Below are positions 1 to 17,774 of a DNA stretch of 64,000 bases, piece after piece. This DNA comes from Candidatus Micrarchaeum acidiphilum ARMAN-2 (GTDB taxonomy: Archaea; Micrarchaeota; Micrarchaeia; Micrarchaeales; Micrarchaeaceae). The notes under the pieces were generated by a model. That model made no database searches, was not told the origin of the DNA, and saw only the letters and a program-made list of their open reading frames with translations. Location: the NCBI GenBank assembly GCA_009387755.1, contig GG697240.1, positions 1 to 64,000 on the forward strand, written 5' to 3'. The translations under genes and the position numbers were made by a program. How positions within the stretch are numbered: the stretch's first letter is position 1; each line of letters starts with the position of its first letter.

Positions 1-1
1 T

Positions 2-706
2 AAAAAATTGAAACAAGTATTTATAAATTTACAAAAAGCCATAAGAGTACAAAATAGACTTGATGAAAAAAAGTTAATAAGTATGGGTTATAAAGGTAAA
101 ATATATAATATACCTCCATTTATAAATATTCCCAAAAAGACCTCCTCTACCAAATCAGAAAGATTTATTGCTCTCTCGGTTAGCCGTTTAAGTATTAAGC
201 ATAAAGGCATAGATTTATTGTGCGAGGTCATAGAAAAGACATTAAACAAGACCGATAAGATCATATTTTATATTGTGGGTTCTGGGGATGACGGCGAAAC
301 ACTAATTAGAAATTTAGAAAATAAGTACCCTAAAAATGTAAAATGGTTTGGGTTTATTGATGAAACTATATTGTACAAAATATATCAAAGATCAAATTTG
401 TTTATCTCAACTTCTCGTGGTGAGAATTTCGGGATTAATGTAGGGGAGGCTCAAATAAGCGGGCTTCCAACAATAGCATTTGATGTTATGGGTTCTCAGG
501 ATATAATAACAAACAAGATTCAGGGCGAATTAATAAAACCGTTTGATGTAAATAAGTTTTCAAATTCAATAATAAAGTTCTATGATTTTTACAATAAAAA
601 CGAAGCTGGATATAAGAACTTAAAAAAGAAAATATCAGATATAAGTATAAAAAGATATAATTATAAACTAATCATAAAACTGCTTATAAAAATGTTTATT
701 GATTGA
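2..706 (+). CDS. Glycosyltransferase family 1 (GT1/GT-B), C-terminal portion; gene probably continues upstream of the window
   Basis: GT1 C-terminal motifs (GENFGINVGEAQISGLPTIAFDVMGSQDII, EX7E-like). Reading frame is open to the window edge. Lies in a ~30% GC island. Confidence 0.7.
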   Translation, partial: KKLKQVFINLQKAIRVQNRLDEKKLISMGYKGKIYNIPPFINIPKKTSSTKSERFIALSVSRLSIKHKGIDLLCEVIEKTLNKTDKIIFYIVGSGDDGETLIRNLENKYPKNVKWFGFIDETILYKIYQRSNLFISTSRGENFGINVGEAQISGLPTIAFDVMGSQDIITNKIQGELIKPFDVNKFSNSIIKFYDFYNKNEAGYKNLKKKISDISIKRYNYKLIIKLLIKMFID

Positions 707-715
707 GGTACTAAA

Positions 716-1411
716 ATGAAGAGAAAACTTTTTATTTATGGTACTATCTTCAATAATTCTTTGTGGGTAAGGGACAGTATAAAAAGTATACAATTGCTAA
801 AACCTGCTGCAATATATATTTGTGATAATTTTTCTACAGATGGAACTTATGAACTATTAAAAAATCTGAATAGAAGATATAAGAATATATATATAGTTAG
901 AGTAAAAAGCAGCAGGGGTAAAGGCCGTCAAGTTGCGCTTGATTTAGTATACAAAGCGTCTAAAAATACTGACTTGGCCATGTATGTTGATTTTGATACA
1001 ATATATAAAAAGCCTTATTTGTTACTTATTCAAAAATTAATTGAAGCAATAAAAGGTAAAGAAGTATCAATAGGCATGCTTGCTACAATTAAAACAAATA
1101 AACTATGTAAATTTAAGAATTTGAATGCCGCAGAAGATGTTGAAAGATACGCCCACTTTATTGCTTTAGGATGTAAACTAATTGATGTTCCCAAAACAGC
1201 TAAACAATATAAAAATCTGGCGACAGAATCAATTAAGGGTAATAGGTTAATATCGCGCGAATTGTACTATTCGAAAAATCCAATCAGGTTGGTAAGGTGG
1301 ACCATTGATTTATATCGCGGGCATGCATACGATAATTATAAAAATGCATTAACTGATAAAGCATCTCAAATTATAAAGTTTATTGACATTTTTGGCTTTT
1401 TTGATGGCTAA
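716..1411 (+). CDS. Glycosyltransferase family 2-like protein
   Basis: N-terminal 'IYICDNFSTDGTYELL' (DxSxDG motif of GT-A/GT2). AT-rich codon usage matches the preceding GT1 gene. Confidence 0.55.
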   Translation: MKRKLFIYGTIFNNSLWVRDSIKSIQLLKPAAIYICDNFSTDGTYELLKNLNRRYKNIYIVRVKSSRGKGRQVALDLVYKASKNTDLAMYVDFDTIYKKPYLLLIQKLIEAIKGKEVSIGMLATIKTNKLCKFKNLNAAEDVERYAHFIALGCKLIDVPKTAKQYKNLATESIKGNRLISRELYYSKNPIRLVRWTIDLYRGHAYDNYKNALTDKASQIIKFIDIFGFFDG

Positions 1412-1531
1412 AGTTATTGGGACTTATAGATATAACGAGAACTTAGATAATCGTAGTTTAATTACACATAAGAGTGAATACCGATTTTTAAAAAAAAGAA
1501 TAACTATTTCTAGTTCCTGCTGGACAACCGC

Positions 1532-2212
1532 ATGGACCTTTTCGAAGGTGTCAAATACGGCATAATAGGAGAGGCGTCTTTCATGGGCTCTAAAATGAAC
1601 ATGCAGACCGCACAGAAAGGTGCCATGAACATCGATATCACCTTTAGGGGCAAGGCTGCCCACGGCTCAAGGCCGTGGCTGGGCGACAACGCGATACTCA
1701 AGGCGATAAAATTTATAGATTCATACCAGCAGGCGGCGGAAAATCTAAAAACTGAAGACAGACTCCTGGGAAAGGGCTCGGTCAACATAGGCACGATAAA
1801 TGGAGGGACTGCCAGCAACGTGGTACCAGATACTTGCAGGGTTGAGGTAGACAGAAGGTTGGTTCCTGGCGAAACTGCTGAAGAGGCGCTGGGGCAGGTT
1901 AAAAGTGTGCTTGAATCTCTCGGGATAAGCGCGGAGATAAGCGTGCCTGTGTCCAGAGGGGCGTATAAGCTTAGGACCGATTCTAAGATACTGGAGATAA
2001 TGAGGCATGCAGCTGGTGAAAACTTCAGTGAAATAGGCGCAACCGGATATACCGAAGCAGAACTTTACAATGCAAGAGCTGGCATAGATTCTGTTGTATT
2101 TGGACCTGGCGAAAAGGAGGTAATCCACCAAGTCGATGAATATGTACCGATAAAGAACCTTCTTGAGGCTGCAAATGTCTACGAGAAGGTAATACGGGAA
2201 TGGTGCTTCTAG
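1532..2212 (+). pseudogene. M20 (ArgE/DapE/CPG2-like) peptidase, 5'-truncated remnant: only the dimerisation and C-terminal catalytic part is present
   Basis: Homology begins at the dimerisation domain ('IIGEAS...ITFRGKAAHGSRPWLGDNAI') and runs to the C-terminal 'GPGE..HQVDEYV'. N-terminal HxD/metal-binding half is absent. Homology starts exactly at the GC-content boundary (~1510). An intact paralog is at 14076-15293. Confidence 0.55.
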
Positions 2213-2317
2213 CCATAAATTGCATAGAGGGCTTTGATTTTACTTCACTACGATTCAACCTTGCACGGAAGCTTCGCCGAATTTATGCGCTTGCAGACGT
2301 TTTGCCTGCCTCCTGAC

Positions 2318-2337
2318 ACATTTGCGCGCGCAAATGT
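2318..2337. promoter_or_regulatory. Perfect 20-bp palindrome ACATTTGCGCGCGCAAATGT, ~60 nt upstream of the EamA transporter gene
   Basis: Read directly from the sequence. Candidate operator for a dimeric regulator, or an RNA hairpin. Confidence 0.3.
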
Positions 2338-2396
2338 ATTTAGGCGCCCGCGTCATAATTTCTGTGAGGATTTGAATCCGCGCCTGCCGTGGTATT

Positions 2397-3236
2397 ATGT
2401 TTTACCTGTATCTTGCCGGTCTTACTGCCGTGCTGTGGTCAATTTCAGGGATAATAATAAAGATGGTGTCATCCAAGTTCGGGAACCTTTTTGCGACCGC
2501 TTTTGTTGGCATTGGAAACGTAATAGTCCTTTCAGCAATAGTGCTGCTGCTGGGCAATTTGGGGATAAGTGCGTATGCCGCCGCGCTCAGCGTTGCTGGC
2601 GGGATAATAACAGGAATAGGATACCTCTTATTCTACAAATCGCTGCAGAGGCAGCAGGCATCAAACACCTTTTCCACAATAGAGATACAGGTCGCAATTT
2701 TATTTCTCTACGGCGTTTTGGTGCTGGGCGAGGCCGTAAGCACCCTAGATGTGCTTGGCATAGTAACCATAGCGCTGGGTACCCTGGCAGTTTCAATAGA
2801 AAAAGCGAGGTTTAACAGGGGGCTTTTGCCTGCAATTGCAGCGCAAGTCTTTTGGGCTCTGGGCTGGATCTTTCTGGTTTACCCCATATCCGTAACACCC
2901 AACCACATACTGCCAAACTTGGTGAGTTTCACTGCAGCGCTCACAATGGTCTGCCTGATACTGCTGGCCTATAAGATTAATAAAAAGTTGGATGCGCATC
3001 CCGATGGCAGGGGGGTGGCGGTCGGTGTATCCGCAGGGCTGTTCTCGGGATCCGGAAACGCAGTATACACGCTGCTAATCTACCTAAAGGAGCTGGCGCT
3101 GAGCGCGCCGATATCCAACAGCAGCCCAATAATAATAGCAGTTATAGCGCACTTCGTCTACAAAGAAAGGTTAAGCACCATCCAGGCCATTGGAATAATT
3201 GCAGTTGTGCTTGGCGCAGTAATTCTAAGTATATGA
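2397..3236 (+). CDS. EamA/DMT-superfamily membrane transporter (about 10 TM helices)
   Basis: Two similar halves of hydrophobic helices. Gly/Ala-rich TM segments typical of EamA domains. Confidence 0.6.
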   Translation: MFYLYLAGLTAVLWSISGIIIKMVSSKFGNLFATAFVGIGNVIVLSAIVLLLGNLGISAYAAALSVAGGIITGIGYLLFYKSLQRQQASNTFSTIEIQVAILFLYGVLVLGEAVSTLDVLGIVTIALGTLAVSIEKARFNRGLLPAIAAQVFWALGWIFLVYPISVTPNHILPNLVSFTAALTMVCLILLAYKINKKLDAHPDGRGVAVGVSAGLFSGSGNAVYTLLIYLKELALSAPISNSSPIIIAVIAHFVYKERLSTIQAIGIIAVVLGAVILSI

Positions 3237-3407
3237 TTCTGCTTATTTTGGGCCTTGCGCTGCGCAAATAGCTGTGTTTATGCCTAGGCGTTGCGTTTCA
3301 GCTTTTAGGGTTCAAGGAAAAATGCAGCCCTGGCCTAAGCCGCAGGATTATTCATCAGCCAGAGGTTGCCATCTGTAGAATTCGCTTTTATGTCCAAGCG
3401 TTGCGAA

Positions 3408-3920
3408 TCAGATACTCGGCAAAATACTGTTCATCGATATGAACTTGTCTCCTACGGTAATGCCCTTTTTGGATATTAGGATTTTTGGCGCTTGAGCTCC
3501 GAGCTTGCTTTCCTTATCTGTCAAAGGCACAAGGTATAATCCGTCTTCGGAGTATACTATTTTGGAATCCACTCTGTAGGTATCCGCGTCGTAGCCACGA
3601 TAGCCGCTTGGGAGTGCCTCGGCCGTCAAGCCCCCGTCCTTTTCAATGACTATTTCTGCCCCATATTCTTCACGTGCGCCTGACCCTCCATAAAAATTGA
3701 TTGAAATTTTAGTAGTTTTGTTAAAAGTGTCAGTAGCACTATCATACCCTGCCCTCTGGCGTGCAGAAATAACCACTTCAGGATATGCAATTACATGGCC
3801 TTCTTCCTCATTAAAGTACAGGCGAAGCTCTGTTTCTGAATCTGTGTCTATTACCTTCTTCTCGGTTTGTTCGCCCCTCAACTTTATATCGGTATTCTTC
3901 CTTACATTCTCTTTATCCAT
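3408..3920 (-). CDS. Hypothetical protein
   Basis: 170-aa ORF with host-like GC. An AT-rich TATA-like promoter region lies just upstream (3921-4003). No recognisable domain. Confidence 0.4.
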   Translation of the reverse strand: MDKENVRKNTDIKLRGEQTEKKVIDTDSETELRLYFNEEEGHVIAYPEVVISARQRAGYDSATDTFNKTTKISINFYGGSGAREEYGAEIVIEKDGGLTAEALPSGYRGYDADTYRVDSKIVYSEDGLYLVPLTDKESKLGAQAPKILISKKGITVGDKFISMNSILPSI

Positions 3921-4003
3921 ATTATCACCAATATCTATGTGCGCAAGGTTATATATATGCCTTTACCATATTATATATATATTTGCATATGTGATATATT
4001 ATT

Positions 4004-4879
4004 ATGGAAAAGCATATCTTCAAATTCGGAAAAAACAGCCTGGCGTTTATAATACCGAAAAAGTGGGCCGACAAATACGGATTGAGGGCGTCCAGCAGGA
4101 TTTTTGTAGGCGAAGACGATGCTGGAAATCTGACCGTCTCCGGGAGCGGAGCTTCGAGGAGCGAAAAGGAAATAGATATCGATAGCAGCATTAGGCCAGA
4201 TGTGCTAAGCAGATGGGTTGGCCTCCACTACATGCAGGGTACGCAAGCACTCAGGATCCATTCATCCGGAGGGATCACTACAGAGCAGGCAATGGCCGTG
4301 GCAAACAGGATAAGCAGCGAGTGCTCCGGCTTCGAGATAACAAGCCAGTCGAGCAGCGATATCATCATAGAAAATTTCTCAGACATGGGTGAAGTCGAAA
4401 TTGACAGGATACTGATGAGGATAGAGGCGCTGATATCGCAGGAGTTTATTGAGCTTGTGAGGGGAAACCCGGATGTTGTTCCTGAAATAGAAAAACTTGT
4501 AAACAGGTTTTACATGCTTGGAATGAGATATACGAATATGGCAAGGTCGCGCAGTTCAATGGCCTATTTTTCAGCCCTGAGCACGCTTGAGGATATTTCA
4601 GACAAGCTTGATGAGGCGAGTAAAATACGCCCCCTGCCACACCAGCTAATGACGGATCTCAAAGATGCATTTTCACTGTGCAATAAGGCAATGTCCGGCG
4701 ATATTAAGTCAATAAACAGAATATTCGAAATCAGGGCAAAGGTACTTGGCGGCATTCCAAAATTGAAATCCGCCGGCGAGGCAGCAGCTCTGCTCGCTTC
4801 GATTGCATATGACACATCAGGATTGGCAGAGCTAGGCCTCATTAAAATCAAGAGCCTGGCAGAAAGCCTGACAAGCTAG
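4004..4879 (+). CDS. AbrB/SpoVT-like N-terminal domain fused to a PhoU-like domain (phosphate-uptake regulator family)
   Basis: N-terminus 'FKFGKNSLAFIIPKKWADKYGL' resembles a swapped-hairpin AbrB domain. The helical remainder resembles archaeal PhoU homologues. AT-rich promoter immediately upstream. Confidence 0.45.
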   Translation: MEKHIFKFGKNSLAFIIPKKWADKYGLRASSRIFVGEDDAGNLTVSGSGASRSEKEIDIDSSIRPDVLSRWVGLHYMQGTQALRIHSSGGITTEQAMAVANRISSECSGFEITSQSSSDIIIENFSDMGEVEIDRILMRIEALISQEFIELVRGNPDVVPEIEKLVNRFYMLGMRYTNMARSRSSMAYFSALSTLEDISDKLDEASKIRPLPHQLMTDLKDAFSLCNKAMSGDIKSINRIFEIRAKVLGGIPKLKSAGEAAALLASIAYDTSGLAELGLIKIKSLAESLTS

Positions 4880-4923
4880 GCTTTGCGCAGGCACACTGCT
4901 TGTGATTAGGCCTGCCGGCTTAA

Positions 4924-5115
4924 TTATATCTTCTTTACCTTCTTTGCCCTTGGGCCTCTTTCAGCCTGCTCGACTTCGTACTCTACTGCGTCGCCAACCG
5001 CCAGTGTTGCTCCGCCTTCAATAGCCGTGCTGTGCACGTATATGTCTTTTCCGTCTTCTCCCGTAATGAATCCGAAACCCCTTTCAGAGTTAAACATTTT
5101 GACTTTTCCTTTCAC
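4924..5115 (-). CDS. cspA: Cold-shock protein (CSD, CspA family)
   Basis: MKGKVKMFNSERGFGFITGEDGKDIYVH...: RNP1/RNP2 motifs (GFGFI, VHS) of the cold-shock domain. Confidence 0.9.
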   Translation of the reverse strand: MKGKVKMFNSERGFGFITGEDGKDIYVHSTAIEGGATLAVGDAVEYEVEQAERGPRAKKVKKI

Positions 5116-5212
5116 AAAACCACTTTTTGTCAGCTATTTATCGAATTTAGGATATAAAATACTTTGTGAAGTCCGCTTTAATCGGTCGTGCTGCATTTTC
5201 GCGGCGCAGGAG

Positions 5213-5932
5213 CTAAAATTTTTTGGCTTTGTGACTAGGCGACGCCTTCATAAACCTTGAGATAATGTATTTTTTGCTGAAGCCTGCTCTGTTAAAGTAC
5301 TCCCATATCTGCGATGGTATCGTAGACGGGTCGGTGCCGTATAGCGGATGGTTTCGCTTTACCGTTGCTTCAAACTCACTGTTTTTAACGTTTTTATAAA
5401 GCGATACAACCAATGCAAGCGACTTGGCCTCCTTGCGGCGAGCCCTTTCCAACTCTGCCTTGCTAAGGCAGGATTCTGCAGGGCTTTCAATTACAACGTA
5501 TCTGCTTCCGAGGGCCTTTCGGAATATGTATGACGCCCTCGGCATGTGGTACGCTACCGCAACCAGCAGTATGCGTTTTGTGCCTCGCATTTTGCGGATT
5601 ATCTTGGAGCTGTACAGAGCGTTTCCTATGGTGTCCATGGACCTTTTCTCGGTGATAAGAGCCGAGGCAGGTGCGCCCAAAGAAACTGCATATCGCCTCA
5701 TGCCCTCCGACTCGGTAAGCCTTGGCTTCCTTCTATGCTTAAAGCTCCAGCCGCCGCTGAAAAGTATCGCCTTGGCCCTGCCTTCCTTGAGCAGCAGAAC
5801 CGCGTGCTCTACAATTTTTTTCGATTCGCAGGTCAGGGAACCGCCTTGGCTGATTTCCTTGCCAAGCGCCACTATTATGGTATTGCCGCGGTATTGCATC
5901 TCCTCCTTACGGACAAAGAGCTTTCTAGCCAT
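5213..5932 (-). CDS. DUF218 (YdcF/ElyC-like) domain protein
   Basis: 'ILFSGGWS...TIGNALYS...LLVAVAYHMPRA' is characteristic of DUF218. Start placed at MARKLF (5932) to avoid overlap with the neighbouring gene. Confidence 0.5.
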   Translation of the reverse strand: MARKLFVRKEEMQYRGNTIIVALGKEISQGGSLTCESKKIVEHAVLLLKEGRAKAILFSGGWSFKHRRKPRLTESEGMRRYAVSLGAPASALITEKRSMDTIGNALYSSKIIRKMRGTKRILLVAVAYHMPRASYIFRKALGSRYVVIESPAESCLSKAELERARRKEAKSLALVVSLYKNVKNSEFEATVKRNHPLYGTDPSTIPSQIWEYFNRAGFSKKYIISRFMKASPSHKAKKF

Positions 5933-5988
5933 GCTGTAATCAATCTTACTTTTTACGATCCGGACGCAGCGGCATCTTCCGTGCACGG

Positions 5989-6939
5989 CTATCTTGTCCT
6001 CAACACTATCCTGGCGTTTGCAGAGTATATCTTCTCTGTCTGGGCATCGTCCAGGGAAAGCTGTTTTATGCTGCCCATTATCCTTTCTGTGCTGCCCCAC
6101 GGGTAGTCAGTCCCGAAAATCACATGGTCAATACCGAAAAAGTCCAATGCGATCCTTAGCCACGGCCACCACATCCCTTCTGCTGTATCGACATAAAGGC
6201 TTTTCAGGACGTCGAGCGGATTCTTCCTGTGGGTTTGTGCATATGTTGCGTCCTGCATCGCAAAATCTGAAATCCTTCCCGCAAGGAGCGGCACTATCGA
6301 GCCCAGGTGATGGACCACCACTTTCAGCCTGTCGTGCTTTTCGAGCACTCCGGACCTGAAAAGCCTGAATAGTGCAAGCGTCGTGTCCATGTCCCATCCA
6401 AGCGCTATGTCCGCATTGTAATCCTTAAGCCATGGATATGAATTTGCCATAAATGTCGGGTGTATCCAAAGTCCGGATCCTATGGATTCCAGGACCGAGT
6501 AAAATCCATCCAGCTCCGGTCCGTCTATGGGCTTGCCGTTGACATTAGACACTACCTGTATGCCGGAAAGCCCGAGGTCGTGAATGCACCTCTTCGCTTC
6601 ATCAGCTGCGAAACCAGGATCAGAAAGCGAGACCGTGCCTATCCCAAGGAACCTGTCTTTGTACTTTTCAACAAGGCTTCTTATGCCGTTGTTGGCCTCT
6701 ACGGTTATATGCTTTGTAGACTTTTCGTCTAGGCCCAGCCCATCGATCGCAGGCATGGCAAGAGAGAGCACTTCTTGATCTATGCCTAGCCTGTCCATTA
6801 CAGACAGCCTGTATTCCACATCGCGCAGTGCCCTGAGGGAATTCGCCATGTTTTTTACCATGTCTGGAATGCTTCCCATGGCATTGATATATTCATCCGG
6901 ATATATGTGGTTGAATATGTCAATTTTCATAATAAGCAT
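5989..6939 (-). CDS. Amidohydrolase-2 family metal-dependent hydrolase (ACMSD-like TIM barrel)
   Basis: N-terminus 'MKIDIFNHIYP' (iDxHxH-type motif) and 'WGSTERIMG'. TATA-like CTTATAAATTTAG about 15 nt upstream of the MLIMK start. Confidence 0.6.
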   Translation of the reverse strand: MLIMKIDIFNHIYPDEYINAMGSIPDMVKNMANSLRALRDVEYRLSVMDRLGIDQEVLSLAMPAIDGLGLDEKSTKHITVEANNGIRSLVEKYKDRFLGIGTVSLSDPGFAADEAKRCIHDLGLSGIQVVSNVNGKPIDGPELDGFYSVLESIGSGLWIHPTFMANSYPWLKDYNADIALGWDMDTTLALFRLFRSGVLEKHDRLKVVVHHLGSIVPLLAGRISDFAMQDATYAQTHRKNPLDVLKSLYVDTAEGMWWPWLRIALDFFGIDHVIFGTDYPWGSTERIMGSIKQLSLDDAQTEKIYSANARIVLRTR

Positions 6940-7042
6940 TGGCGAATCTAAATTTATAAGCATTATCGCTGTTTTGCCGCATATGCATTGTATGGATGCA
7001 GGCACAGCACTATACATAAATATCTATTGATAAAATTGATAT

Positions 7043-7423
7043 GTGATTGATATGGAAAGGATTGAAATGTGCCCAACACTCGAAGTGCTCCACTTATTGG
7101 GGAGAAAGTGGGCCGTTCCAGTGCTTGACGAAATATATTTTTCAGAGAAATACGCAAGATTCAACGATATGGCGAGCTCTCTGCACCCAATAACTCCGAG
7201 AGAGCTGAACCTTATGCTATTAAAGCTGGTTGATTCCGGCATTGTAGAAAAGGTTGATCTTCGCGGGAAAACCGCCTACACCCTGACAAAAAGAGGCGTA
7301 CTAGTGCACGATCTAATAAAAGCCATAAAACGTCAGGGCAACAAGTTAGGAAATGAAGGGTACGACTGCGTGAACACGAGGTGCAGTCAGTGCGCGCAGT
7401 TCAAAGTCTGCCTTAACGAATAG
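7043..7423 (+). CDS. HxlR-family winged-helix transcriptional regulator with a Cys-rich C-terminal tail
   Basis: 'CPTLEVLHLLGRKWAVPVLDEI' is the HxlR signature. C-terminal CVNTRCSQCAQFKVC. Confidence 0.7.
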   Translation: MIDMERIEMCPTLEVLHLLGRKWAVPVLDEIYFSEKYARFNDMASSLHPITPRELNLMLLKLVDSGIVEKVDLRGKTAYTLTKRGVLVHDLIKAIKRQGNKLGNEGYDCVNTRCSQCAQFKVCLNE

Positions 7424-7448
7424 CCAGTCTGCGCTGGCATACTGCAGA

Positions 7449-8270
7449 TTATGCACGATTCTTAATTATATGTTCAATCCCAAAAGCGGTAACCGACATA
7501 GTTGCGAGCTCAACCGCGTTTTTGAGCGCTGACTCTGGGCCTGCTCCCGCTGCGGTTTGGGCCATAAATGCCCCTCCGAGTATGTCTCCGGAACCGCTTT
7601 TTTCCACCTGCTTTACTCTTGGTGCCTGCGCATGGAATGCAGTGCCTTTGCCAGAGTACACTGCCCCGTACCTGCCGAGCTTGTAGACAAACGCCTTGCT
7701 TTCTAGCAGTGGCTTGTCAATAAGCCTAAATTCGTTCATGTCAAAGAAAAGCACGTCGGCAACTGCCATTGCGGCAGATATTTCTGCGTGCCTGCTCACC
7801 AGGTACTCTTTTACAGTGTCAATGCCTATCACAGCGCCTTTCACCGTGGACCTGATGTAGGACGCCACATCGCCTTGCTTTTTTGGGTCCGTAGTTGCTA
7901 TGTAGTAATATTTACACTTCAGATAATGCTCAGGAATCATCCGGATCGAAAATCTTTCGCGCACACCCGGAAAAATCTGGATGTCCCGCTTATAGCCGTC
8001 CTTGGCGTATTTGCACACGCACAAGAAGCTGCTTCCCGGTGAAGTTTGAACGCCTTCTGTGTCTGCGCCAAGGAGTGCAAGTTTGCCCATGTCATAATCG
8101 CTACCTACTATTGAGAGCAGTCCTACCCTGTCCGAGAACCTCGAGGCACCAGCTGCAGCATAATATGCAGATCCGCCCTGCATTTTCATGTTGATATCCG
8201 GTGCATGCAGTTCGTCATAGCCCAGGTCTCCGAATATCACAAGTTCTGGCGCTTTTTTAACTTCGTCCAT
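7449..8270 (-). CDS. PfkB/ribokinase-family sugar or metabolite kinase
   Basis: C-terminal 'KSGSGDILGGAF' matches PfkB signature 2. N-terminal GG dipeptide region. Last gene of an overlapping four-gene operon. Confidence 0.7.
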   Translation of the reverse strand: MDEVKKAPELVIFGDLGYDELHAPDINMKMQGGSAYYAAAGASRFSDRVGLLSIVGSDYDMGKLALLGADTEGVQTSPGSSFLCVCKYAKDGYKRDIQIFPGVRERFSIRMIPEHYLKCKYYYIATTDPKKQGDVASYIRSTVKGAVIGIDTVKEYLVSRHAEISAAMAVADVLFFDMNEFRLIDKPLLESKAFVYKLGRYGAVYSGKGTAFHAQAPRVKQVEKSGSGDILGGAFMAQTAAGAGPESALKNAVELATMSVTAFGIEHIIKNRA

Positions 8271-8296
8271 AGGTTCCGCCTTTCAGGTCATGCGGT

Positions 8297-8830
8297 TCAT
8301 TCGTCAAACTTTAAGGTTTTAAAGCTTTTCAAATCCATGCCGTGCATGGCGTAGACCTTTTCCCAGCTTATATTCCCAAGCTCCCTTCCAGCTATTCCTA
8401 TCTCAGATATGGCCGACCGCACCTCTCTTTCGGACTTTGCCTCGACTTCAGCTACCGGCTTAAGCTTCGGCCATTCGTTTATGGTTATCTCTGCATTTTT
8501 GTAGATGTAAGTATATCTGACGTTTTCCTGATACAGCCCGTCGCCCAGTGCTTTCTGGAATATCTTTACGGCGGTGTCAAAGTCTTCAACAGCGGTTTCC
8601 AGCTCTTCGGTATTGGCGAGGCCGCTGCCGGTCCTGTACTTGTAGGTGACTGTGGCGGTTTTTCCGTCGGTCCTCACGCGTATGAATCTGTCCTCGTTTT
8701 CGGCCTTCTTTAAAGCGAAGACCCACCTTTTTTGCAGTGTCTTGCCAGCGAATTTAGCGCCGTTTTTTTCCAACTTTGCAATCAGGCCGTCCTTGTCTAT
8801 GTCGATTATCTTAGTTTCAATTTCGATCAT
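8297..8830 (-). CDS. CYTH-domain protein (triphosphate tunnel metalloenzyme; CyaB / thiamine-triphosphatase-like)
   Basis: N-terminal 'MIEIETKI' (ExExK motif) with alternating acidic and basic beta-strands. Overlaps the upstream gene by 4 nt. Confidence 0.65.
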   Translation of the reverse strand: MIEIETKIIDIDKDGLIAKLEKNGAKFAGKTLQKRWVFALKKAENEDRFIRVRTDGKTATVTYKYRTGSGLANTEELETAVEDFDTAVKIFQKALGDGLYQENVRYTYIYKNAEITINEWPKLKPVAEVEAKSEREVRSAISEIGIAGRELGNISWEKVYAMHGMDLKSFKTLKFDE

Positions 8831-12053: not shown

Positions 12054-12330
12054 TGTATCGCGCTTTGATCAGTTTAATAATCCAGCAAAGATTATGCGTC
12101 ATGCAAGTTATAAAAACTTTCATCGGATTGCAGTACAGTTTGCATCCCTATACTCCGCAAGAATCAGATACGGATGGGTAAAGCGACAAGAACCATTTGC
12201 TTTGCTTCGCCCTTTTTCCAGGATGGCTCGTATGTTGATATGCCACTCTTGCTTCATTCTGCAACTCTCATGCACACTGCAATTATTAAAAAGTGTCTCA
12301 GCTCTACAGTAACAGTTAAAAGATTTTATA

Positions 12331-14070
12331 TTGATAATCAAATCAGTGCGTTCTATGGAAGATATATATCATAGTGTATTGGAAATCTCCGGAGATAAAC
12401 TTAAGATAGAGGACATTGTCCGCGTAGGCAATTCTATCCCTGGAACAGTTATGGTGAGACTGTCCAAAAATGCAGAAGACTCCATGCGCAAATCTAGGAA
12501 GTTTGTGGATGAAGCTGTTGAAAACAAATTAACAATATATGGCATTAACACTGGTTTCGGTTCACAGGCTGAGAATGTGATATCGAGCGAAGATGTTGCT
12601 CTCCTGCAGCGCTACCTGATAGTAAGCCATTCTGCAGGGGTAGGAGACCCTTTCAGTCAGGAACTGATAAGAGCTTCAATGCTGATAAGGGCAAATACGC
12701 TGGCAAAGGGCAACTCAGGAATCAGGATAGAAGTAGTGCAAACGCTCATAGATATGATAAACAAAGGCGTGGCCCCGTTTGTGCCTAGGAAGGGATCGCT
12801 AGGCGCCAGTGGAGATCTGGCCCCGTTATCGCATATTGCGCTAGTAATGACACGCGACCCGAGGGATACACACATAAAGATTGAGGATGAGCTAGCCAAG
12901 AAAGCAGCTTCTGGGATGCATTTCGATGATGACGAACGCAGAAAATCTCTAAAGGAGTCTGGAGAGGCATATCTTTGGTCGTCTGAAAGAAGCTCATGGG
13001 AGCGGATGACCGGAATTGAAGCAATGGCAAAGGCCGGAATCAAAAGGATAACCTTGAGCGCAAAGGAAGGTCTTGCATTGAACAATGGAAGCACGGTTTC
13101 GGCCGCTATGGCGGCATACGCCATCCATTACGGAGAAAACTTGCAGCGCAGCGCAGACATAATAGCCGCGCTAACCACGGAATCTGTTAAGGGTTTCGAG
13201 TCCGCATTCTATGAAGAGCTTCATGCGACACGTCCGCACCCGGGGCAGGCTGAATCTGCCAAAAGGATACGCAATTACTTGAAATCTAGTGGAATGGTTA
13301 CGCACATAGAGCAGATACAAAACTCGCGAAATGTATATCAGGACTTTAAAAAGGTTCAGGACTCGTATTCTATAAGGTGTATTCCCCAGGTTCATGGCCC
13401 GGTGATAGACACGCTGAGGTCCTCGAGAGAAATGATTGATAAGGAGATCAATTCTGCAACCGATAATCCATTGATAATGCCGGACAACAGCTACTTTAAC
13501 AAGAGTTTCAGCGGAGGCAATTTCCACGGCCAGTACATAAGCCTCTACATGGATAATCTCGGCACAGCACTCGGCATACTCGGCAACATAGCCGAGAGAA
13601 GGATTTTCAAGCTCGTGACAAGGAATCTGAGCGAAGGGCTGCCAGGGTTTCTGATATCTCCAGCACCGGATAAGGCCGGGCTCATGAATGGTGCGATGAT
13701 ACTTCAGTATACTGCAGCACACCTGGTATCGGAGAACAAGGTATTCTCGCATCCAGCGTCAGCTGATAGCATACCCTCGTGCGAAGACAAAGAAGATTTC
13801 GTAAGCATGGCGCCCATAGCAGCCAGCAAGGCACTGGCGATACTGGAAAACTCTGAGAATATACTTGCAATAGAGCTTTGGTGCGATATAGTCGCCCTCA
13901 GGATCAGGATGAAAGAGGGCCTTACACCAAGCGATAACGCCAAAAAGGTCCTTGGTCTCTTCAAGGACAAGGTTGCGGAGTTTGAGGAGGACAGAGTAGT
14001 CTATGACGAGGTGAGGGAGCTGAAGGCGTTCATACACGATGGCGGGCTGCAGTCCATGACCCGGCAGTAA
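12331..14070 (+). CDS. hutH: Aromatic amino acid ammonia-lyase (HAL/PAL family; MIO-forming)
   Basis: 'GSLGASGDLAPLSHIAL' contains the Ala-Ser-Gly triad that forms the MIO cofactor. Full-length collinear similarity to histidine ammonia-lyase. Confidence 0.8.
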   Translation: MIIKSVRSMEDIYHSVLEISGDKLKIEDIVRVGNSIPGTVMVRLSKNAEDSMRKSRKFVDEAVENKLTIYGINTGFGSQAENVISSEDVALLQRYLIVSHSAGVGDPFSQELIRASMLIRANTLAKGNSGIRIEVVQTLIDMINKGVAPFVPRKGSLGASGDLAPLSHIALVMTRDPRDTHIKIEDELAKKAASGMHFDDDERRKSLKESGEAYLWSSERSSWERMTGIEAMAKAGIKRITLSAKEGLALNNGSTVSAAMAAYAIHYGENLQRSADIIAALTTESVKGFESAFYEELHATRPHPGQAESAKRIRNYLKSSGMVTHIEQIQNSRNVYQDFKKVQDSYSIRCIPQVHGPVIDTLRSSREMIDKEINSATDNPLIMPDNSYFNKSFSGGNFHGQYISLYMDNLGTALGILGNIAERRIFKLVTRNLSEGLPGFLISPAPDKAGLMNGAMILQYTAAHLVSENKVFSHPASADSIPSCEDKEDFVSMAPIAASKALAILENSENILAIELWCDIVALRIRMKEGLTPSDNAKKVLGLFKDKVAEFEEDRVVYDEVRELKAFIHDGGLQSMTRQ

Positions 14071-14075
14071 GCTCT

Positions 14076-15293
14076 TCACTTCTGCCTAAACAGGCCCAAG
14101 AAGACCTTTGCATCGTTTACCATGTTTTCGATACTTGCATATTCATTAGGCTGATGCGCTACGTCGTCCCCCGTGAACCAAACGGCGGTCGGGAAGCCCT
14201 TCCTCCTAAAGAATGTGGCGCACGTGCCTCCACCTATGCCCACGGGTTTCAGCTCAAAGCCCCTATATTCCTTTACTGTTCCGCGCAGAAGCTTTACAAT
14301 TTCGGCCGACACGGGAGTCGCCTGTGGTGCAGCATTCTTCTCTTCTATATCTATGGTTATCTTTGCAGGGCTGAATTCAGGAGATTTGGAAAATTCTTCG
14401 ATATCTCTAAGTACCTGATTTATGTCGTAACATGGCAATATTCTAGAGTCAAGGTAGAACACCTCCTTGCCTGGAACAATGTTTACGCTGTCTACATTCT
14501 TTTCGTGCTTCGTCATTTCAAAAGTAGAAACGCTAGGTTCGAATATAGGGTCGCGGGCGCTGTACTTTTCATGGAGAAGGTTGTCCAGTCTATAGAAGAA
14601 CTTGATTGCCACGCGAAGTGCGTTGACTCCATCGTCAGGCGTACTTGCATGCACCTGCTTTCCCTCAAACGTGAATTTGAGCCAGAGAACGCTCTTTTCG
14701 GCAACCTCAACCTTACTACCATCACTTGTGCTCCAGTCGGGGACCATGAACATGTCGGAACTGGAAAACAGTCCCTTTTCTTCAACAAGTTTTTCAATGC
14801 CATATACGCTTCCCAGCTCCTCGTCCGCCACTATTGCCAGCCCAAAGTTAATGGGGGGGTTTGAGCCTGAATCCTTTAGTGCCCTGAGCGCGTATAGGGC
14901 GCTAACAAGGCTTTGCCCGTCATCCATGCTGCCCCTGCCATATATCTTACCATCCCTTATAGTTGCGGTAAAAGGGTCAGTTTTCCAAGCTTCCAAATCG
15001 CCTGCCGCCACCGTGTCCATATGCGGCACCAACCAAAGTGTTCTATCATTATCGCCATACTTGACAACGAGGTTTGGCCTCTTTACGCCATCGGAATCAG
15101 TGTAATCATATTCTTTCACTTCAAAACCCCAGCGTTCTAGAATGGACCTCAAGAATTGCGCCCTTTCCATCTCGCCTGCGCCGCCACTCTTTGGTGATAT
15201 CGCCTTTATAGCTATCATCTTCGATAGTGTGTCAACCATTTCCTTCGTATCTAAGAGTTCACCAATATTTTTTCTCGTTGTTGTCATATCCAC
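14076..15293 (-). CDS. M20-family metallopeptidase (ArgE/DapE/succinyl-diaminopimelate desuccinylase-like), intact
   Basis: 'LWLVPHMDTVAAGD' (HxD metal site), 'ADEELGS', C-terminal 'HQPNEY'. Converges on hutH with a 5-nt gap. Confidence 0.75.
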   Translation of the reverse strand: MDMTTTRKNIGELLDTKEMVDTLSKMIAIKAISPKSGGAGEMERAQFLRSILERWGFEVKEYDYTDSDGVKRPNLVVKYGDNDRTLWLVPHMDTVAAGDLEAWKTDPFTATIRDGKIYGRGSMDDGQSLVSALYALRALKDSGSNPPINFGLAIVADEELGSVYGIEKLVEEKGLFSSSDMFMVPDWSTSDGSKVEVAEKSVLWLKFTFEGKQVHASTPDDGVNALRVAIKFFYRLDNLLHEKYSARDPIFEPSVSTFEMTKHEKNVDSVNIVPGKEVFYLDSRILPCYDINQVLRDIEEFSKSPEFSPAKITIDIEEKNAAPQATPVSAEIVKLLRGTVKEYRGFELKPVGIGGGTCATFFRRKGFPTAVWFTGDDVAHQPNEYASIENMVNDAKVFLGLFRQK

Positions 15294-15350
15294 ACCACAT
15301 ATAACTATTCTATGATTACTCTTTCAATATTTATCATTTTGGATAACCGG

Positions 15351-15914
15351 CTATGATTTGGCGTCGCCATCGTACTTCAGCCTGTAGAGTTCTGCCTCTT
15401 TAAACGCTTCTTCTACCGCCTCTTCGGGAGTCTTTGCCGGATAAACTTGCCTGCGTTTCCTTCCGTCAAAGAATTTGCCTGCCATGTCGTCCGCCCATCC
15501 GCCAAAGCCCTGGAGTGCTATCAGTGGTATGTCCGCTTGGTACGCAACGGCCAGCTCGTTGAGCGTCCCGGAGCCGCCGCTCACTCCTATGACCGCGTCG
15601 CACGCCAGGACAAGCACGAATTCCCTGCCCCCACCTCTCTCCATGCCGCAGGGCACTATAACATCAACGCCCTCCTTCTGGTAGATATCCTTTCTCTTGC
15701 CATATGTCACCCCCACGGTAAGACCACCTCCTTTCTTGGCTCCCCTACATGCTGCAGTGGAGAGCGAGTCATAATCCTTTTCGGCACCAAAAACCAGAAT
15801 CCCGCCCTTTTTGGCTATTAGCTCGCCCATCCTCTCGGCGGCACGCTCCGCCTCCTTGGCATACTTCAGATCTGCAGCAGAACCCATCACACCTATCTGC
15901 AATCTCCTTGGCAT
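15351..15914 (-). CDS. TIGR00725/LOG-like (SLOG) Rossmann-fold protein
   Basis: 'IGVMGSA...GGILVFGAEKD...VIGVSGGSGTLNELA' is typical of LOG/DprA-like SLOG proteins. Confidence 0.55.
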   Translation of the reverse strand: MPRRLQIGVMGSAADLKYAKEAERAAERMGELIAKKGGILVFGAEKDYDSLSTAACRGAKKGGGLTVGVTYGKRKDIYQKEGVDVIVPCGMERGGGREFVLVLACDAVIGVSGGSGTLNELAVAYQADIPLIALQGFGGWADDMAGKFFDGRKRRQVYPAKTPEEAVEEAFKEAELYRLKYDGDAKS

Positions 15915-15984
15915 TATATCACAAAATCAAATAAGCTTAAAGGCTTATAAAACTACCTAAAAGTTTTACAATAAATCTTCCATT

Positions 15985-16890
15985 TCATGAAACTACCGTC
16001 TCCAGTTCTGACAGCCCGAGTTTGGCGTAATAAGCGGACTTTGACTTGTCAGTGTTTATCCTGACAAAAGAGGACAATGAGAACTGCAGGGCACGGCCCA
16101 AGGCTAACTGCCTTCTCGTTTTGTCTTCGCCGAGGTCCAAGAGCTTTGCTACCTTGCCGACCAAATCATTCAGATGCTGCGCCTGTGCCGCCATAGGAAT
16201 CTGATAGACATCTGCCAGCAATGCGGTAAATATGCCGATGCAGGGAAGCATTGTGCCCCTATATGTAGACTGCGGCCAGGGATCGATAAATTTAATCGAA
16301 TCATTATGTACAAAGAAATTGTCTGGCGTCGAGTCCAGCACCATAATAGTACTGTTCCTAGAGGCAATATCTTCCGGCTTCAGCCTTGTCAAAAGGTCCC
16401 TGTACCTAGTGTCTATCACACTATTTTGTTCCAACACTCCGTACCATTTCTTAATTTGCGACGCTATTTCTACGATTCCTGCATACTGTTCATCCGTGTT
16501 CTTCACCAGCGTTTTCTCTGCAAGCGACTGCAATTTATCGAAAAAAGTGTCTAGCACAGCAGGATTGTCTCTAGCGCATTGTGTAATATTTTTGCCCAGA
16601 TATGGCATTACCAGCGCGCTAAACTGCTTTTCTTTCAACACCATCAATCTATCTGGCACTAATGCTCTCCCGCCTTCTCTGGAAATCATAGCGTAGCCAT
16701 TTACATTGTTTGACACTTCATTCATGCTTTCCTTATCTACCCCTATCTTTGCCACCATCTGTTGTTTGCCCTTGCGGCACAGGTAAAGCTTAGTTGTCGT
16801 GTGTCCCTGTATTGCCAACGGCTCGAAATCATAGAGCGAGAATTTCTTTGCCAAATGCTCTAAAATCCTATTTTGGGTGCTTTCCGACAA
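15985..16890 (-). CDS. Protein-kinase-like / aminoglycoside-phosphotransferase-like fold protein (putative small-molecule kinase)
   Basis: 'VLDSTPDNFFVHNDSIKFIDPW' resembles the catalytic loop HxDxxxxN...D of APH/choline-kinase enzymes. Assignment is weak. Confidence 0.35.
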   Translation of the reverse strand: MSESTQNRILEHLAKKFSLYDFEPLAIQGHTTTKLYLCRKGKQQMVAKIGVDKESMNEVSNNVNGYAMISREGGRALVPDRLMVLKEKQFSALVMPYLGKNITQCARDNPAVLDTFFDKLQSLAEKTLVKNTDEQYAGIVEIASQIKKWYGVLEQNSVIDTRYRDLLTRLKPEDIASRNSTIMVLDSTPDNFFVHNDSIKFIDPWPQSTYRGTMLPCIGIFTALLADVYQIPMAAQAQHLNDLVGKVAKLLDLGEDKTRRQLALGRALQFSLSSFVRINTDKSKSAYYAKLGLSELETVVS

Positions 16891-17731
16891 TTGCCTCAGT
16901 CCTTAAAAATTTAGTCAGTATCTCAATCACGCCGCCGGTTATGTTATTTTCAGCAACGTATATTGCCTTGTCCTTAAATTCATTACCGGCATTTCCAACC
17001 GCATAATGCAAAGCTATGTCTTCGCCCAAATAATCGGACATGGAGTTGCCTATCATACCTATCTGCTTCAAACCTAATTCCTGCATTAAAAGTTTTGTTC
17101 CATCGCGCTTGCTTCCGCCCTTCGGCGCAATTATTATAACTCCATCCCCTGCGTTTAAATCGTTATGTGTACCAATAGTTTGCCAGTTCAAAACAGGTTT
17201 TATCACTTCAAGAATCTTATTGTATTCATCAAATTCTGGAAACCTAAAGTGCGTGCCATCGTTTATTCTTACAAACAATCCAAGACTGCATTTGCGCAAT
17301 GGGTTTAACATAACAACTGTTTCCCCACGCCCTCCTATCAGTTCTCCGTTGCGGATTCTTGCCACTGGATCTCCGCCCGACCACACCGTTATACCTTCAG
17401 CCTCCAGCAAAGTTTGAGCCGTCTTGAACATCTTTTCAAATTCGATAGGGATATCCCTATCCTTTACGATGGTTTTGCCATCAATCATTAAGAGTTGGCC
17501 CTTTTCTGCCACGACAGGTCCGTTAAGTCCTATCTCGTTTTCCCAATTTACCAATACTTGAAGCGGCGTGTCTGAGTTCAACCCTATTTTCCAGCCCGCA
17601 TTTTCCATGCTTTCTACTACTCTACGTAGCTGCTGAAGTGGCCATGTAAAATTATAATTTTTGTCTATAAGGGTTGCATCTAGATCCAACAGCACTAATT
17701 TATTAAGTGGAATTTTCATGTAACGGGACAT
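16868..17731 (-). CDS. HAD-superfamily hydrolase, subfamily IIB-like (Cof/MpgP-like phosphatase)
   Basis: Motif I 'LLDLDATLID', cap region 'NGPVVAEKG', motif IV 'GNSMSD'. Paralog of 18860-19738. Confidence 0.65.
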   Translation of the reverse strand: MSRYMKIPLNKLVLLDLDATLIDKNYNFTWPLQQLRRVVESMENAGWKIGLNSDTPLQVLVNWENEIGLNGPVVAEKGQLLMIDGKTIVKDRDIPIEFEKMFKTAQTLLEAEGITVWSGGDPVARIRNGELIGGRGETVVMLNPLRKCSLGLFVRINDGTHFRFPEFDEYNKILEVIKPVLNWQTIGTHNDLNAGDGVIIIAPKGGSKRDGTKLLMQELGLKQIGMIGNSMSDYLGEDIALHYAVGNAGNEFKDKAIYVAENNITGGVIEILTKFLRTEAIVGKHPK

Positions 17732-17774
17732 AAATTAATCACTCTGTGCCTAACGCGTTTTATGCCAATCGATC

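What the first reader, a model, noticed from the sequence alone, without database searches (positions are those of the whole stretch)
1..1535. Low-GC glycosyltransferase island ending at a truncated gene
The first ~1.5 kb is about 30% GC, against about 50% for the rest of the window. It encodes a GT1 and a GT2 glycosyltransferase. The composition switches within ~20 nt (about 1510-1530), which is exactly where homology to an M20 peptidase begins in mid-protein. This looks like a horizontally acquired surface-glycan locus whose insertion or replacement removed the 5' half of a resident gene. The island runs off the left edge of the window.
Basis: partly seen in the sequence, partly recalled or inferred. 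Interest (0 to 1): 0.55.

Follow-up and report, generated by a model that had tools for sequence, protein, structure and literature searches.

The report
Rearrangement breakpoint at a scaffold end
The AT-rich sugar-transferase genes at the left edge are a genuine but displaced piece of this tiny archaeon's own surface-glycan gene cluster, joined through a 9-base overlap to the middle of a peptidase gene that is intact in most of the same population, so this is an ordinary minority rearrangement (or chimera), not the edge of a newly inserted island.

Summary
Window 1-1512 is 28.7% GC against 47.2% elsewhere (z = -6.9). It encodes a GT4 fragment and a GT2-like gene. M20 homology starts mid-protein, at codon 142, at position 1514.

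The window is the start of the 335-kb scaffold of Ca. Micrarchaeum acidiphilum ARMAN-2, so the low-GC piece sits at a scaffold end. Both parent sequences were recovered:
- The same-strain intact 373-aa M20 gene lies on 21 contigs. They are about 99.9-100% identical to the window from 1509 on (two 95.6% contigs belong to a co-occurring sister lineage). The original Sanger assembly also holds it.
- The native glycan island (membrane protein, three GT4, GT2, FkbM methyltransferase) lies on 16 contigs. Its left flank is an ARMAN-2 gene on another scaffold.

The two parents share a perfect 9-nt microhomology at the join (GTTCCTGCT, 1513-1521; chance about 5e-5). The junction recurs in one short-read JGI contig, which ends at a k=77 graph merge. 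A Logan contig from another run stops exactly at the breakpoint.

Best reading: a minority structural variant made by microhomology-mediated recombination between two loci of one genome, captured at a thinly covered scaffold end. A chimeric artefact is not excluded. It is not a fixed island insertion. Interest is low.

The parts
1..1512 (+). Low-GC segment (28.7% GC). It is the 3' part of the native Micrarchaeum glycan-biosynthesis island, equivalent to L006:6166-7676.
   Evidence: Window 1-1521 is 99.8% identical to L006, L007 and L008 and to L010.
2..706 (+). C-terminal 234 aa of a 385-aa GT4-family glycosyltransferase (the third GT4 of the island), cut by the scaffold end.
   Evidence: Pfam PF00534, E=8e-28. 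100% identical to EET89890.1 'partial'. The full-length 385-aa form P0172 is on 16 contigs.
716..1411 (+). GT2-like glycosyltransferase ORF as it reads in this scaffold (231 aa, EET89891.1). Its end is a frameshift artefact. The native gene is 271 aa, and the junction-allele ORF in L010 is 282 aa, corresponding to window 716-1565.
   Evidence: Pfam PF00535, 27.8 bits. Sequences P0121 (271 aa), P0163 (231 aa) and P0165 (282 aa, ending ...SSSCWTTAWTFSKVSNTA) are.
1360..1394 (.). Three discrepancies from all other island contigs, clustered within 35 nt: a mismatch at 1360, a 1-nt insertion at 1379 and a mismatch at 1394. They probably reflect a low-quality, single-read consensus near the scaffold end, and they cause the GT2 frameshift.
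   Evidence: Alignment of the window against L010. L010 is 100% identical to L006 over the island part.
1513..1521 (.). The junction: a perfect 9-nt microhomology, GTTCCTGCT, shared by the 3' end of native GT2 (L006:7677-7685, 11 nt before its stop) and codons 141-144 of intact M20 (L014:10423-10431). With the flanking TCTA the match is 13 of 14.
   Evidence: Four-way alignment. Random junctions between the two parents reach >=9 nt with P = 5.1e-5.
1522..2212 (+). 3' part of the resident M20 (ArgE/DapE-type) metallopeptidase gene. Homology runs from codon 142, and the annotated ORF starts at ATG 1532 (226 aa, EET89892.1). It lacks the N-terminal catalytic-domain residues.
   Evidence: Pfam. 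100% identical to residues 148-373 of the intact P0149. 0-6 mismatches to the same-strain contigs L013-L015 and L017-L021.
2397..7017 (.). Resident context, syntenic in all relatives: EamA transporter (+), 170-aa protein (-), 291-aa protein (+), cold-shock protein (-), DUF218 (-), amidohydrolase (-).
   Evidence: ORFs and Pfam. The same gene order follows the intact M20 in L001 and L012-L021.

Best explanation
The left 1.5 kb is the 3' end of a native low-GC glycan-biosynthesis gene cluster of Ca. Micrarchaeum acidiphilum ARMAN-2. The cluster comprises a polytopic membrane protein, three GT4 genes, a GT2-like gene and an FkbM-type methyltransferase. It normally lies at another locus, next to UNLARM2_0334. 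In this scaffold it is joined, head to tail on the same strand, to codon 141 of a resident M20 peptidase gene through a 9-bp microhomology.

The join is best read as a real DNA rearrangement made by microhomology-mediated illegitimate recombination. It could be a deletion, a duplication or a copy-insertion; the topology is unresolved. A minority of an otherwise near-clonal Richmond Mine population carries it, and the majority allele has both genes intact. The variant ended up in the reference because it sits at a thinly covered scaffold end.

Functional consequence (inferred): GT2 keeps 268 of its 271 residues and gains a 14-residue out-of-frame tail. M20 loses the N-terminal His/Asp/Glu-Glu metal and catalytic residues and is dead in that allele.

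Shown: both parent sequences, the breakpoint, the microhomology, and recurrence of the junction in a short-read assembly. Inferred: in vivo origin, minority frequency, and mechanism.
For: - Both parents were recovered at about 100% identity. The native island is in L006-L008 and L022-L028. The intact M20 is in L013-L021 and L031.
- The island belongs to the same genome. The 198-aa left-flank protein of L006 is identical to EET90307.1 (UNLARM2_0334) of ARMAN-2, on an 88,950-bp scaffold.
- The breakpoint is a 9-nt perfect microhomology, with chance P = 5e-5. This is far too short for any overlap or k-mer assembler to have joined on, and it is not expected from blunt ligation.
- The same junction is on JGI contig L010 (3300038729), which lacks the window's three local errors. 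Its stretch shared with the intact-M20 path is exactly 77 nt, as for a k=77 de Bruijn edge ending at a merge vertex. This points to an independent short-read assembly with reads spanning the junction.
- Logan contig L022 (run SRR359020) matches the island at 100% and stops exactly at the last microhomology base, as expected at a fork between native and junction continuations.
- The island carries other structural and disruptive polymorphisms, so rearrangement there is not exceptional.
Against: - The junction is seen on only two contigs, the window and L010. No other member of the GT2 protein cluster reads through it.
- The provenance of JGI 3300038729 and SRR359020 could not be established. 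They could share DNA, or even reads, with each other, and conceivably with the ARMAN-2 data set.
- The junction lies 1.5 kb from a scaffold end, in a stretch with clustered consensus errors.
- The same JGI sample has the intact allele on a 92-kb contig (L014).
- The Sanger community assembly ACXJ01 contains the intact allele but not the junction pattern.
- No second or reciprocal junction was found.
- Cluster membership implies the island is not on the long contigs that extend 35-80 kb upstream of M20. A simple deletion would therefore be very large for a 1-Mb genome.
Confidence: 0.6

Rival explanations
1. Artefact. The junction is a chimeric molecule or mis-join that exists only in the sequencing data, such as a chimeric clone or read, or in vitro template switching at the 9-nt match. 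It was incorporated at the low-coverage end of the scaffold. The genome itself has only the intact M20 and the intact island.
For: - Scaffold-end position, with the GT4 annotated as 'partial'.
- Three consensus errors within 35 nt just left of the junction.
- The ARMAN-2 assembly also holds an 11.5-kb contig with the intact 5' part of M20, overlapping the window by about 600 nt.
- 21 intact-M20 contigs and 16 intact-island contigs against 2 junction contigs.
- Independence of the second observation is unproven.
Against: - The same breakpoint appears in a k=77 short-read contig without the Sanger errors.
- A contig from run SRR359020 ends exactly at the breakpoint.
- An identical chimera arising twice is very unlikely.
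- Ligation chimeras do not show 9-nt microhomology (P = 5e-5).
- 9 nt is too short for an assembler join.
Confidence: 0.3
2. A horizontally acquired glycan island inserted at, or replaced, this position in the ARMAN-2 genome and removed the 5' half of M20. Position 1513 would then be the fixed island boundary.
For: - A strong compositional step.
- The relative L001 has an intact M20 at this position.
- Genomic islands that split genes are documented in the related Mia14 (PMC5498576).
Against: - The intact M20 is present in the same strain at 99.9-100% identity, including in the same assembly project.
- The island's native right side continues past GT2 into a methyltransferase on 16 contigs.
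- The GT2 gene is itself cut at the junction.
- There is no tRNA, and no integrase or terminal repeats were found.
Confidence: 0.04
3. Contamination. The low-GC 1.5 kb belongs to a different, AT-rich organism of the same biofilm (for example ARMAN-4/5 or a Thermoplasmatales archaeon) and was wrongly attached to the Micrarchaeum scaffold.
For: - 29% GC is far from the 47% of the genome.
- The nearest named GT homologues are Thermoplasmatota and Sulfolobales proteins at 41-45% identity.
Against: - L006 physically links the island to a 46%-GC flank whose protein is 100% identical to ARMAN-2 UNLARM2_0334.
- A sister lineage has the flank gene and a 90%-identical GT4 that are most likely on one 116.5-kb contig, inferred from equal contig lengths in the cluster table.
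- Island contigs co-occur with ARMAN-2 M20 contigs in the same runs.
Confidence: 0.04

Closest known systems
Hypervariable low-GC surface-glycan (glycosylation / O-antigen-like) gene islands of prokaryotes. Glycosyltransferase-bearing genomic islands are reported in the related Ca. Mancarchaeum acidiphilum Mia14 (PMC5498576).
   Same: A cluster of GT4 and GT2 glycosyltransferases, a sugar methyltransferase and a polytopic membrane protein. GC and GC3 are far below the genome's. There are many strain-level disruptive and structural variants.
   Different: No glycan product, flippase or oligosaccharyltransferase was identified, and no donor lineage was found. What the window shows is only the last 1.5 kb of the cluster, displaced from its native context.
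Microhomology-mediated illegitimate recombination junctions (short-repeat deletions or duplications, MMEJ / template-switch events). This comparison rests on general knowledge.
   Same: Two unrelated loci are joined in direct orientation at a 9-bp perfect repeat (13 of 14 with flanks), with one repeat copy retained. Both parent sequences exist intact in the population.
   Different: Topology, size and frequency of the event are unknown. No reciprocal or second junction was seen. An in vivo origin is inferred, not shown.
Gene-splitting genomic-island integration in Mia14 (MIA14_0850/0891 split by a 36.5-kb island; PMC5498576).
   Same: A DPANN (Micrarchaeota) genome in which an island abuts a truncated resident gene.
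   Different: In Mia14 both halves of the split gene flank the island in a closed genome. Here only the 3' half is adjacent, the island gene is also cut, and the intact gene coexists in the same strain.
Assembly or cloning chimeras at contig ends.
   Same: Terminal position, low coverage, clustered errors, and a conflicting overlapping contig in the same project.
   Different: The junction recurs in a separate short-read assembly and coincides with a graph fork in another run. Microhomology is present.

Membership tests
Integrated (horizontally acquired) genomic island at this site | Composition deviating from the host genome | tested here: met
   GC 0.287 against 0.472, z = -6.9; GC3 about 0.25 against about 0.53.
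Integrated (horizontally acquired) genomic island at this site | Mobility or integration signatures at the boundary (tRNA, integrase, direct repeats flanking the element) | tested here: not met
   No tRNA in the 64 kb. No integrase among the ORFs of 1-6000 or among the L006 island proteins. The only repeat is the 9-nt microhomology, present once at the junction.
Integrated (horizontally acquired) genomic island at this site | The site is occupied in this genome and empty only in other strains or species | tested here: not met
   Same-strain contigs (0-6 mismatches over 2.6-10.7 kb) carry the intact M20 with its normal upstream genes. The ARMAN-2 project itself also holds it.
Integrated (horizontally acquired) genomic island at this site | The boundary coincides with the true end of the island | tested here: not met
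   On 16 contigs the island continues past this point, through the GT2 stop and into an FkbM methyltransferase.
GT4-family glycosyltransferase (Pfam Glycos_transf_1, PF00534) | C-terminal GT-B Rossmann domain matching the profile above the gathering score | tested here: met
   97.6 bits against a cut-off of 26.4 for window 2-706. The N-terminal domain is missing here because the scaffold ends, and is present in the 385-aa P0172.
GT2-family glycosyltransferase (PF00535) | GT-A domain matching the profile above the gathering score | tested here: met
   27.8 bits against a cut-off of 23.3, a marginal pass. Catalytic motifs were not examined.
M20 metallopeptidase (ArgE/DapE/acetylornithine deacetylase type) | Complete catalytic domain with the N-terminal metal-binding His/Asp and the Glu-Glu pair, plus the dimerisation domain | tested here: not met
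   The window ORF matches only M20_dimer and profile positions 112-205 of 206 of Peptidase_M20. Residues 1-147 of the 373-aa P0149, which include the HMD, DMKGG and GEET segments, are absent. Assignment of those segments as metal ligands is from general knowledge of the family.
Microhomology-mediated rearrangement junction | Both parental sequences identifiable, with a shared short repeat at the breakpoint beyond chance | tested here: met
   L006 and L014 are the parents; 9-nt perfect overlap; P(>=9) = 5.1e-5 in 2 million simulated junctions.
Microhomology-mediated rearrangement junction | Junction present in independent DNA preparations | tested here: inconclusive
   It is seen in the window, in L010 (a k=77 short-read contig) and as a fork at the end of L022. 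The provenance and independence of these data sets could not be verified.
Assembly chimera | The join occurs at a repeat at least as long as the assembler's overlap or k-mer, and is unique to one assembly | tested here: not met
   The shared sequence is only 9 nt. The junction is also present in L010.

The most novel reading that the evidence does not exclude
Within a near-clonal natural population of an ultrasmall DPANN archaeon, a sub-population carries a large microhomology-mediated rearrangement. It links the hypervariable surface-glycan island to a distant locus and inactivates an M20 peptidase. If collinear it would be a deletion of more than 80 kb; otherwise it would be a copy-insertion of island DNA. 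Together with the other breakpoints and frameshifts in the island, this would mark the glycan locus as a recombination hot spot that reshapes a 1-Mb reduced genome in situ.
Probability: 0.35. Interest if true: 0.35.

Novelty: new member of a known kind. Interest (0 to 1): 0.15.

Why it matters
It matters mainly as a caution.
- The first three genes of this widely used reference scaffold (EET89890-EET89892) do not represent the majority genome.
- The 231-aa GT2 is a frameshifted read-out.
- The 226-aa 'peptidase dimerization domain protein' is a fragment of a gene that is intact in the population.
- A GC step next to a truncated gene is not enough to call an island insertion.

If the junction is real, it is one more example of strain-level structural variation centred on a surface-glycan locus. 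That is expected for organisms under phage or host-interaction pressure and is of modest interest for DPANN population genomics.

Tried and rejected
- Exact look-ups of the window's own GT2 and M20 ORFs, and of P0135 and P0150, found nothing on record.
- Both genome-contig scans were uninformative. The M20 fragment gave no confirmed hit. GT4 P0172 gave only 26%-identical bacterial hits. The species is evidently not among those representatives.
- The junction-specific DNA scan of metagenome contigs gave 0 hits. It did not find L010, a JGI contig known to contain the pattern, so the collection lacks that contig. The collection does hold the Sanger metagenome ACXJ01, which therefore lacks the junction.
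- P0152, a 226-aa M20 from JGI, looked like a second truncated allele in a divergent lineage. It is only a contig (L011) that starts inside an intact gene, matching L001 from 10392. Rejected.
- I tested whether the island lies immediately upstream of the 10-kb block before M20, which would make the junction a deletion of about 12 kb. The right flank of L006 and the left end of L031 share no sequence. Cluster membership implies the long contigs extending 35-80 kb upstream of M20 do not contain GT4 number 3. Adjacency is not supported, and the arrangement remains unknown.
- GTTCCTGCT also occurs at L006:825 and on the minus strand at window 47115. I found no evidence of a role and treat these as chance.
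- Literature searches for the run and sample accessions returned nothing. The original ARMAN genome paper is not held. Chen et al. 2018 mention a closed ARMAN-2 genome but give no details on closure.
- Rfam and tRNA scans of the whole window found nothing.
Full report
**1. The observation**

The compositional step is real and sharp.
- Window 1-1512 is 28.7% GC against 47.2% for the remaining 62.5 kb.
- No other 1.5-kb window falls below 40.8% (z = -6.9).
- Third-codon-position GC is 0.24-0.26 in the two left ORFs against 0.52-0.55 in the next three genes.
- The 30-nt bins jump from 0.20 (1481-1510) to 0.53 (1511-1540).

Pfam confirms the gene content.
- 2-706 is the C-terminal half of a Glycos_transf_1 (GT4) protein (E=8e-28).
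- 716-1411 is a weak but above-threshold Glycos_transf_2 match.
- 1532-2212 matches M20_dimer plus only the last part of Peptidase_M20.
- The frame upstream of 1532 is closed by many stop codons.

**2. Where the window comes from**

The GT4 fragment is 100% identical to EET89890.1, 'glycosyl transferase group 1, partial', of Candidatus Micrarchaeum acidiphilum ARMAN-2, on a 335,072-bp contig. The GT2 and M20 ORFs are EET89891.1 and EET89892.1 on the same contig. The window is therefore the start of a GenBank scaffold of an acid-mine-drainage DPANN archaeon. 'Runs off the left edge' means 'runs off the end of the assembly'. This makes an assembly or cloning artefact a serious rival from the outset.

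**3. The M20 side**

A relative at 83% nucleotide identity (L001) has an intact 373-aa M20 followed by the same EamA, 170-aa, 291-aa, CSD, DUF218 and amidohydrolase genes as the window. Homology to the window starts at 1514.

More importantly, a 373-aa protein (P0149) whose last 226 residues are identical to the window ORF is encoded on 21 contigs from NCBI, JGI, ENA and Logan assemblies.
- Eight of the ten places shown match window 1509 onward with 0-6 mismatches over 2.6-10.7 kb.
- The other two are a 95.6% sister lineage.
- All have the same upstream genes: acetyltransferase, HD hydrolase, endo/exonuclease-phosphatase and so on.

The ARMAN-2 project itself contains EET90572.1 (P0150). This is the N-terminal 270 aa of the same protein on an 11,487-bp contig, and it overlaps the window's fragment identically over about 120 codons. 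The Sanger mine-drainage metagenome contig ACXJ01011273.1 (L031, 11,491 bp) overlaps window 1509-2110 and differs only by Ns in its terminal low-quality stretch. So the gene is intact in the same strain and even in the same sequencing project.

**4. The glycosyltransferase side**

Window 1-1521 is 99.8% identical to JGI and Logan contigs (L006-L008). In those contigs the GT2-like gene is complete (271 aa) and is followed by a minus-strand FkbM-type methyltransferase, not by M20. Sixteen contigs from at least ten samples or runs, plus two NCBI MAGs, show this native arrangement.

The longest, L006 (8,978 bp), shows a low-GC block of about 7 kb (roughly 1500-8700) between 46-48% GC flanks. Its contents are:
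- a 781-aa protein with about a dozen N-terminal hydrophobic segments and a sequon-rich C-terminal domain (no Pfam hit);
- three GT4 genes;
- the GT2-like gene;
- the methyltransferase.

The left-flank protein of L006 is identical to EET90307.1 (UNLARM2_0334, AbiEi-like) of ARMAN-2, on an 88,950-bp scaffold. The island is therefore part of the Micrarchaeum genome, at another locus, and is not contamination. A sister lineage carries the flank gene (99% identical over 171 aa) and a 90%-identical GT4. Their cluster entries give the same longest-contig length, 116,555 bp, so they are probably on one contig.

The window's GT2 differs from every other copy by two mismatches and a 1-nt insertion within 35 nt (positions 1360, 1379, 1394). 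This produces the annotated 231-aa product. I read the cluster as low-quality single-read consensus near the scaffold end (inference).

**5. The junction**

Aligning the window with both parents places the breakpoint in a perfect 9-nt overlap, GTTCCTGCT (window 1513-1521). This equals L006:7677-7685, 11 nt before the GT2 stop, and L014:10423-10431, M20 codons 141-144. With the flanking TCTA the match is 13 of 14. In 2 million simulated random joins of the two parents, overlaps of 9 nt or more occurred with P = 5.1e-5.

Nine nucleotides is far below any assembler's overlap or k-mer length and is not expected from blunt-end ligation. It is the classic mark of microhomology-mediated illegitimate recombination or template switching (general knowledge).

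Both genes are cut.
- GT2 loses its last three codons and, in the error-free version, gains 14 out-of-frame residues (P0165, 282 aa...SSSCWTTAWTFSKVSNTA).
- M20 loses residues 1-141, which include the His/Asp and Glu-Glu segments that M20 enzymes use for metal binding and catalysis. That assignment comes from family knowledge; the sequence is.

**6. Is the junction real DNA?**

Three observations speak for it.
- JGI contig L010 (sample 3300038729, 2,745 bp) contains the same junction. It is 100% identical to L006 on the island side, so it lacks the window's three errors, and it is identical to the window up to its end at window-equivalent 1589.
- The part of L010 shared with the intact-M20 path is exactly 77 nt. 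This is what a k=77 de Bruijn edge that stops at the merge vertex looks like. L010 thus comes from a short-read assembly in which reads span the junction (inference from contig geometry).
- Logan contig L022 (run SRR359020) equals L006:2358-7685 at 100% and stops exactly at the last base of the microhomology, as expected at a fork between the native and junction continuations. Contigs from four other runs pass this point unbroken.

Several points speak against it.
- Only these two contigs carry the junction.
- The same JGI sample has the intact allele on a 92-kb contig (L014).
- The ACXJ01 Sanger assembly has the intact allele but not the junction pattern.
- I could not establish the provenance of the JGI and SRA data sets, so L010 and L022 may be one data set, and independence from the ARMAN-2 reads is unproven.

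**7. What kind of event**

Both pieces are joined head to tail on the same strand. That is compatible with a deletion, with a tandem-duplication or circle junction, or with a copy of island DNA inserted into M20.

I tested the attractive idea of a small deletion. The intact-allele Sanger contig L031 begins, 10.4 kb upstream of M20, with the 3' end of a different low-GC GT2 gene (34.7% GC). That gene is homologous to the 328-aa GT2 at the start of L001, so glycosylation genes do lie upstream of this block. However:
- the right flank of L006 shares nothing with L031 or with L012-L021;
- the 90%-identity cluster of GT4 number 3 has no member on any contig longer than 9 kb, while contigs with intact M20 extend 35-80 kb upstream.

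So adjacency is not supported, and the event, if collinear, would be large. The topology remains open. The closed ARMAN-2 genome mentioned by Chen et al. 2018 (PMC5864196) would settle it.

**8. Verdict**

But the reading 'island insertion that removed half a resident gene' does not hold.
- The island has its own native locus in this genome.
- Its real end is not at 1513.
- The M20 gene is intact in the same strain.
- There are no integration signatures (no tRNA; no integrase).

My probabilities:
- About 0.6: a minority structural variant generated in vivo by microhomology-mediated recombination and captured at a poorly covered scaffold end.
- About 0.3: a chimeric artefact.
- A few percent each: a fixed insertion, or foreign contamination.

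Either way the feature is ordinary. Low-GC, strain-variable surface-glycan clusters are well known. Glycosyltransferase-bearing islands and a gene-splitting island are described in the related Mia14 (PMC5498576). The three proteins are already in GenBank.

The useful outcome is a correction. EET89891.1 is frameshifted, EET89892.1 is a fragment of an otherwise intact gene, and the first 1.5 kb of the scaffold does not reflect the majority genome.

Noticed in passing
L006:8503-8526 (native island, inside the FkbM methyltransferase gene 7755-8741, minus strand): A second polymorphic breakpoint. Contigs L007, L008, L025, L027 and L028 diverge from L006 exactly after L006:8514. L006 has a tandem 12-nt repeat there (CTTTCCCAAAAC CTTTCCCAAAAC). 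The alternative continuation (GAAAAATAATCTTCAGG..., 308 nt in L025) matches nothing else fetched.
   Followed up: partly
L023, L024, L025, L027, L028 (island contigs from other samples): Disruptive variants of the island genes. GT2 is split into 60 + 183 aa in several runs, and a 261-aa form ends at the A8 homopolymer. GT4 number 2 is broken into fragments of 129, 161 or 185 aa, with a divergent patch around L006:4909-5033. These are either real pseudogenisation of the glycan locus or homopolymer sequencing errors.
   Followed up: partly
L031:1-472 (also L001:1-264): In the intact allele, the block upstream of M20 is bounded about 10.4 kb away by the 3' end of another low-GC (34.7%) GT2 gene on the plus strand. 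It is homologous to a 328-aa GT2 in relative L001 and different from the window's GT2. Several assemblies break near there. This suggests a second glycosylation locus, or a larger one, upstream of M20.
   Followed up: partly
window 12144-20090: An 8-kb segment with no counterpart in relative L001. It encodes an aromatic amino-acid (histidine/phenylalanine) ammonia-lyase (E=1e-158), a second complete M20 peptidase paralogue (405 aa, minus strand 14076-15293), a SLOG/LOG-like protein, two HAD hydrolases and two proteins without Pfam hits. GC dips to 0.41 at 17-19 kb.
   Followed up: partly
L006:351-947 (UNLARM2_0334, AbiEi-like regulator): The 198-aa ARMAN-2 / L006 form is identical to 206-aa forms on long contigs up to residue 171, then has an unrelated C-terminus. 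This is a frameshift or another breakpoint in the island's left flank.
   Followed up: no
window 1-64000: No tRNA gene (ARAGORN) and no Rfam family at gathering threshold in the whole 64 kb. This is somewhat unusual for 64 kb of a 1-Mb genome. Intron-containing or split archaeal tRNAs might have been missed.
   Followed up: no
window 60047-60213: A short stretch 74% identical, in opposite orientation, to L001:4934-5091, which lies in a 330-aa gene of unknown function upstream of M20 in the relative. It is probably a paralogue or a relocated gene.
   Followed up: no
L012 and L016 (ENA ERZ27237514, ERZ27237492): A 95.6%-identical sister lineage carries exactly the same M20 protein (P0149) as ARMAN-2. 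A 90%-identical island GT4 (P0184) is labelled 'Candidatus Marsarchaeota archaeon' in NCBI, which looks like a binning or taxonomy mislabel of a Micrarchaeum-like contig.
   Followed up: no
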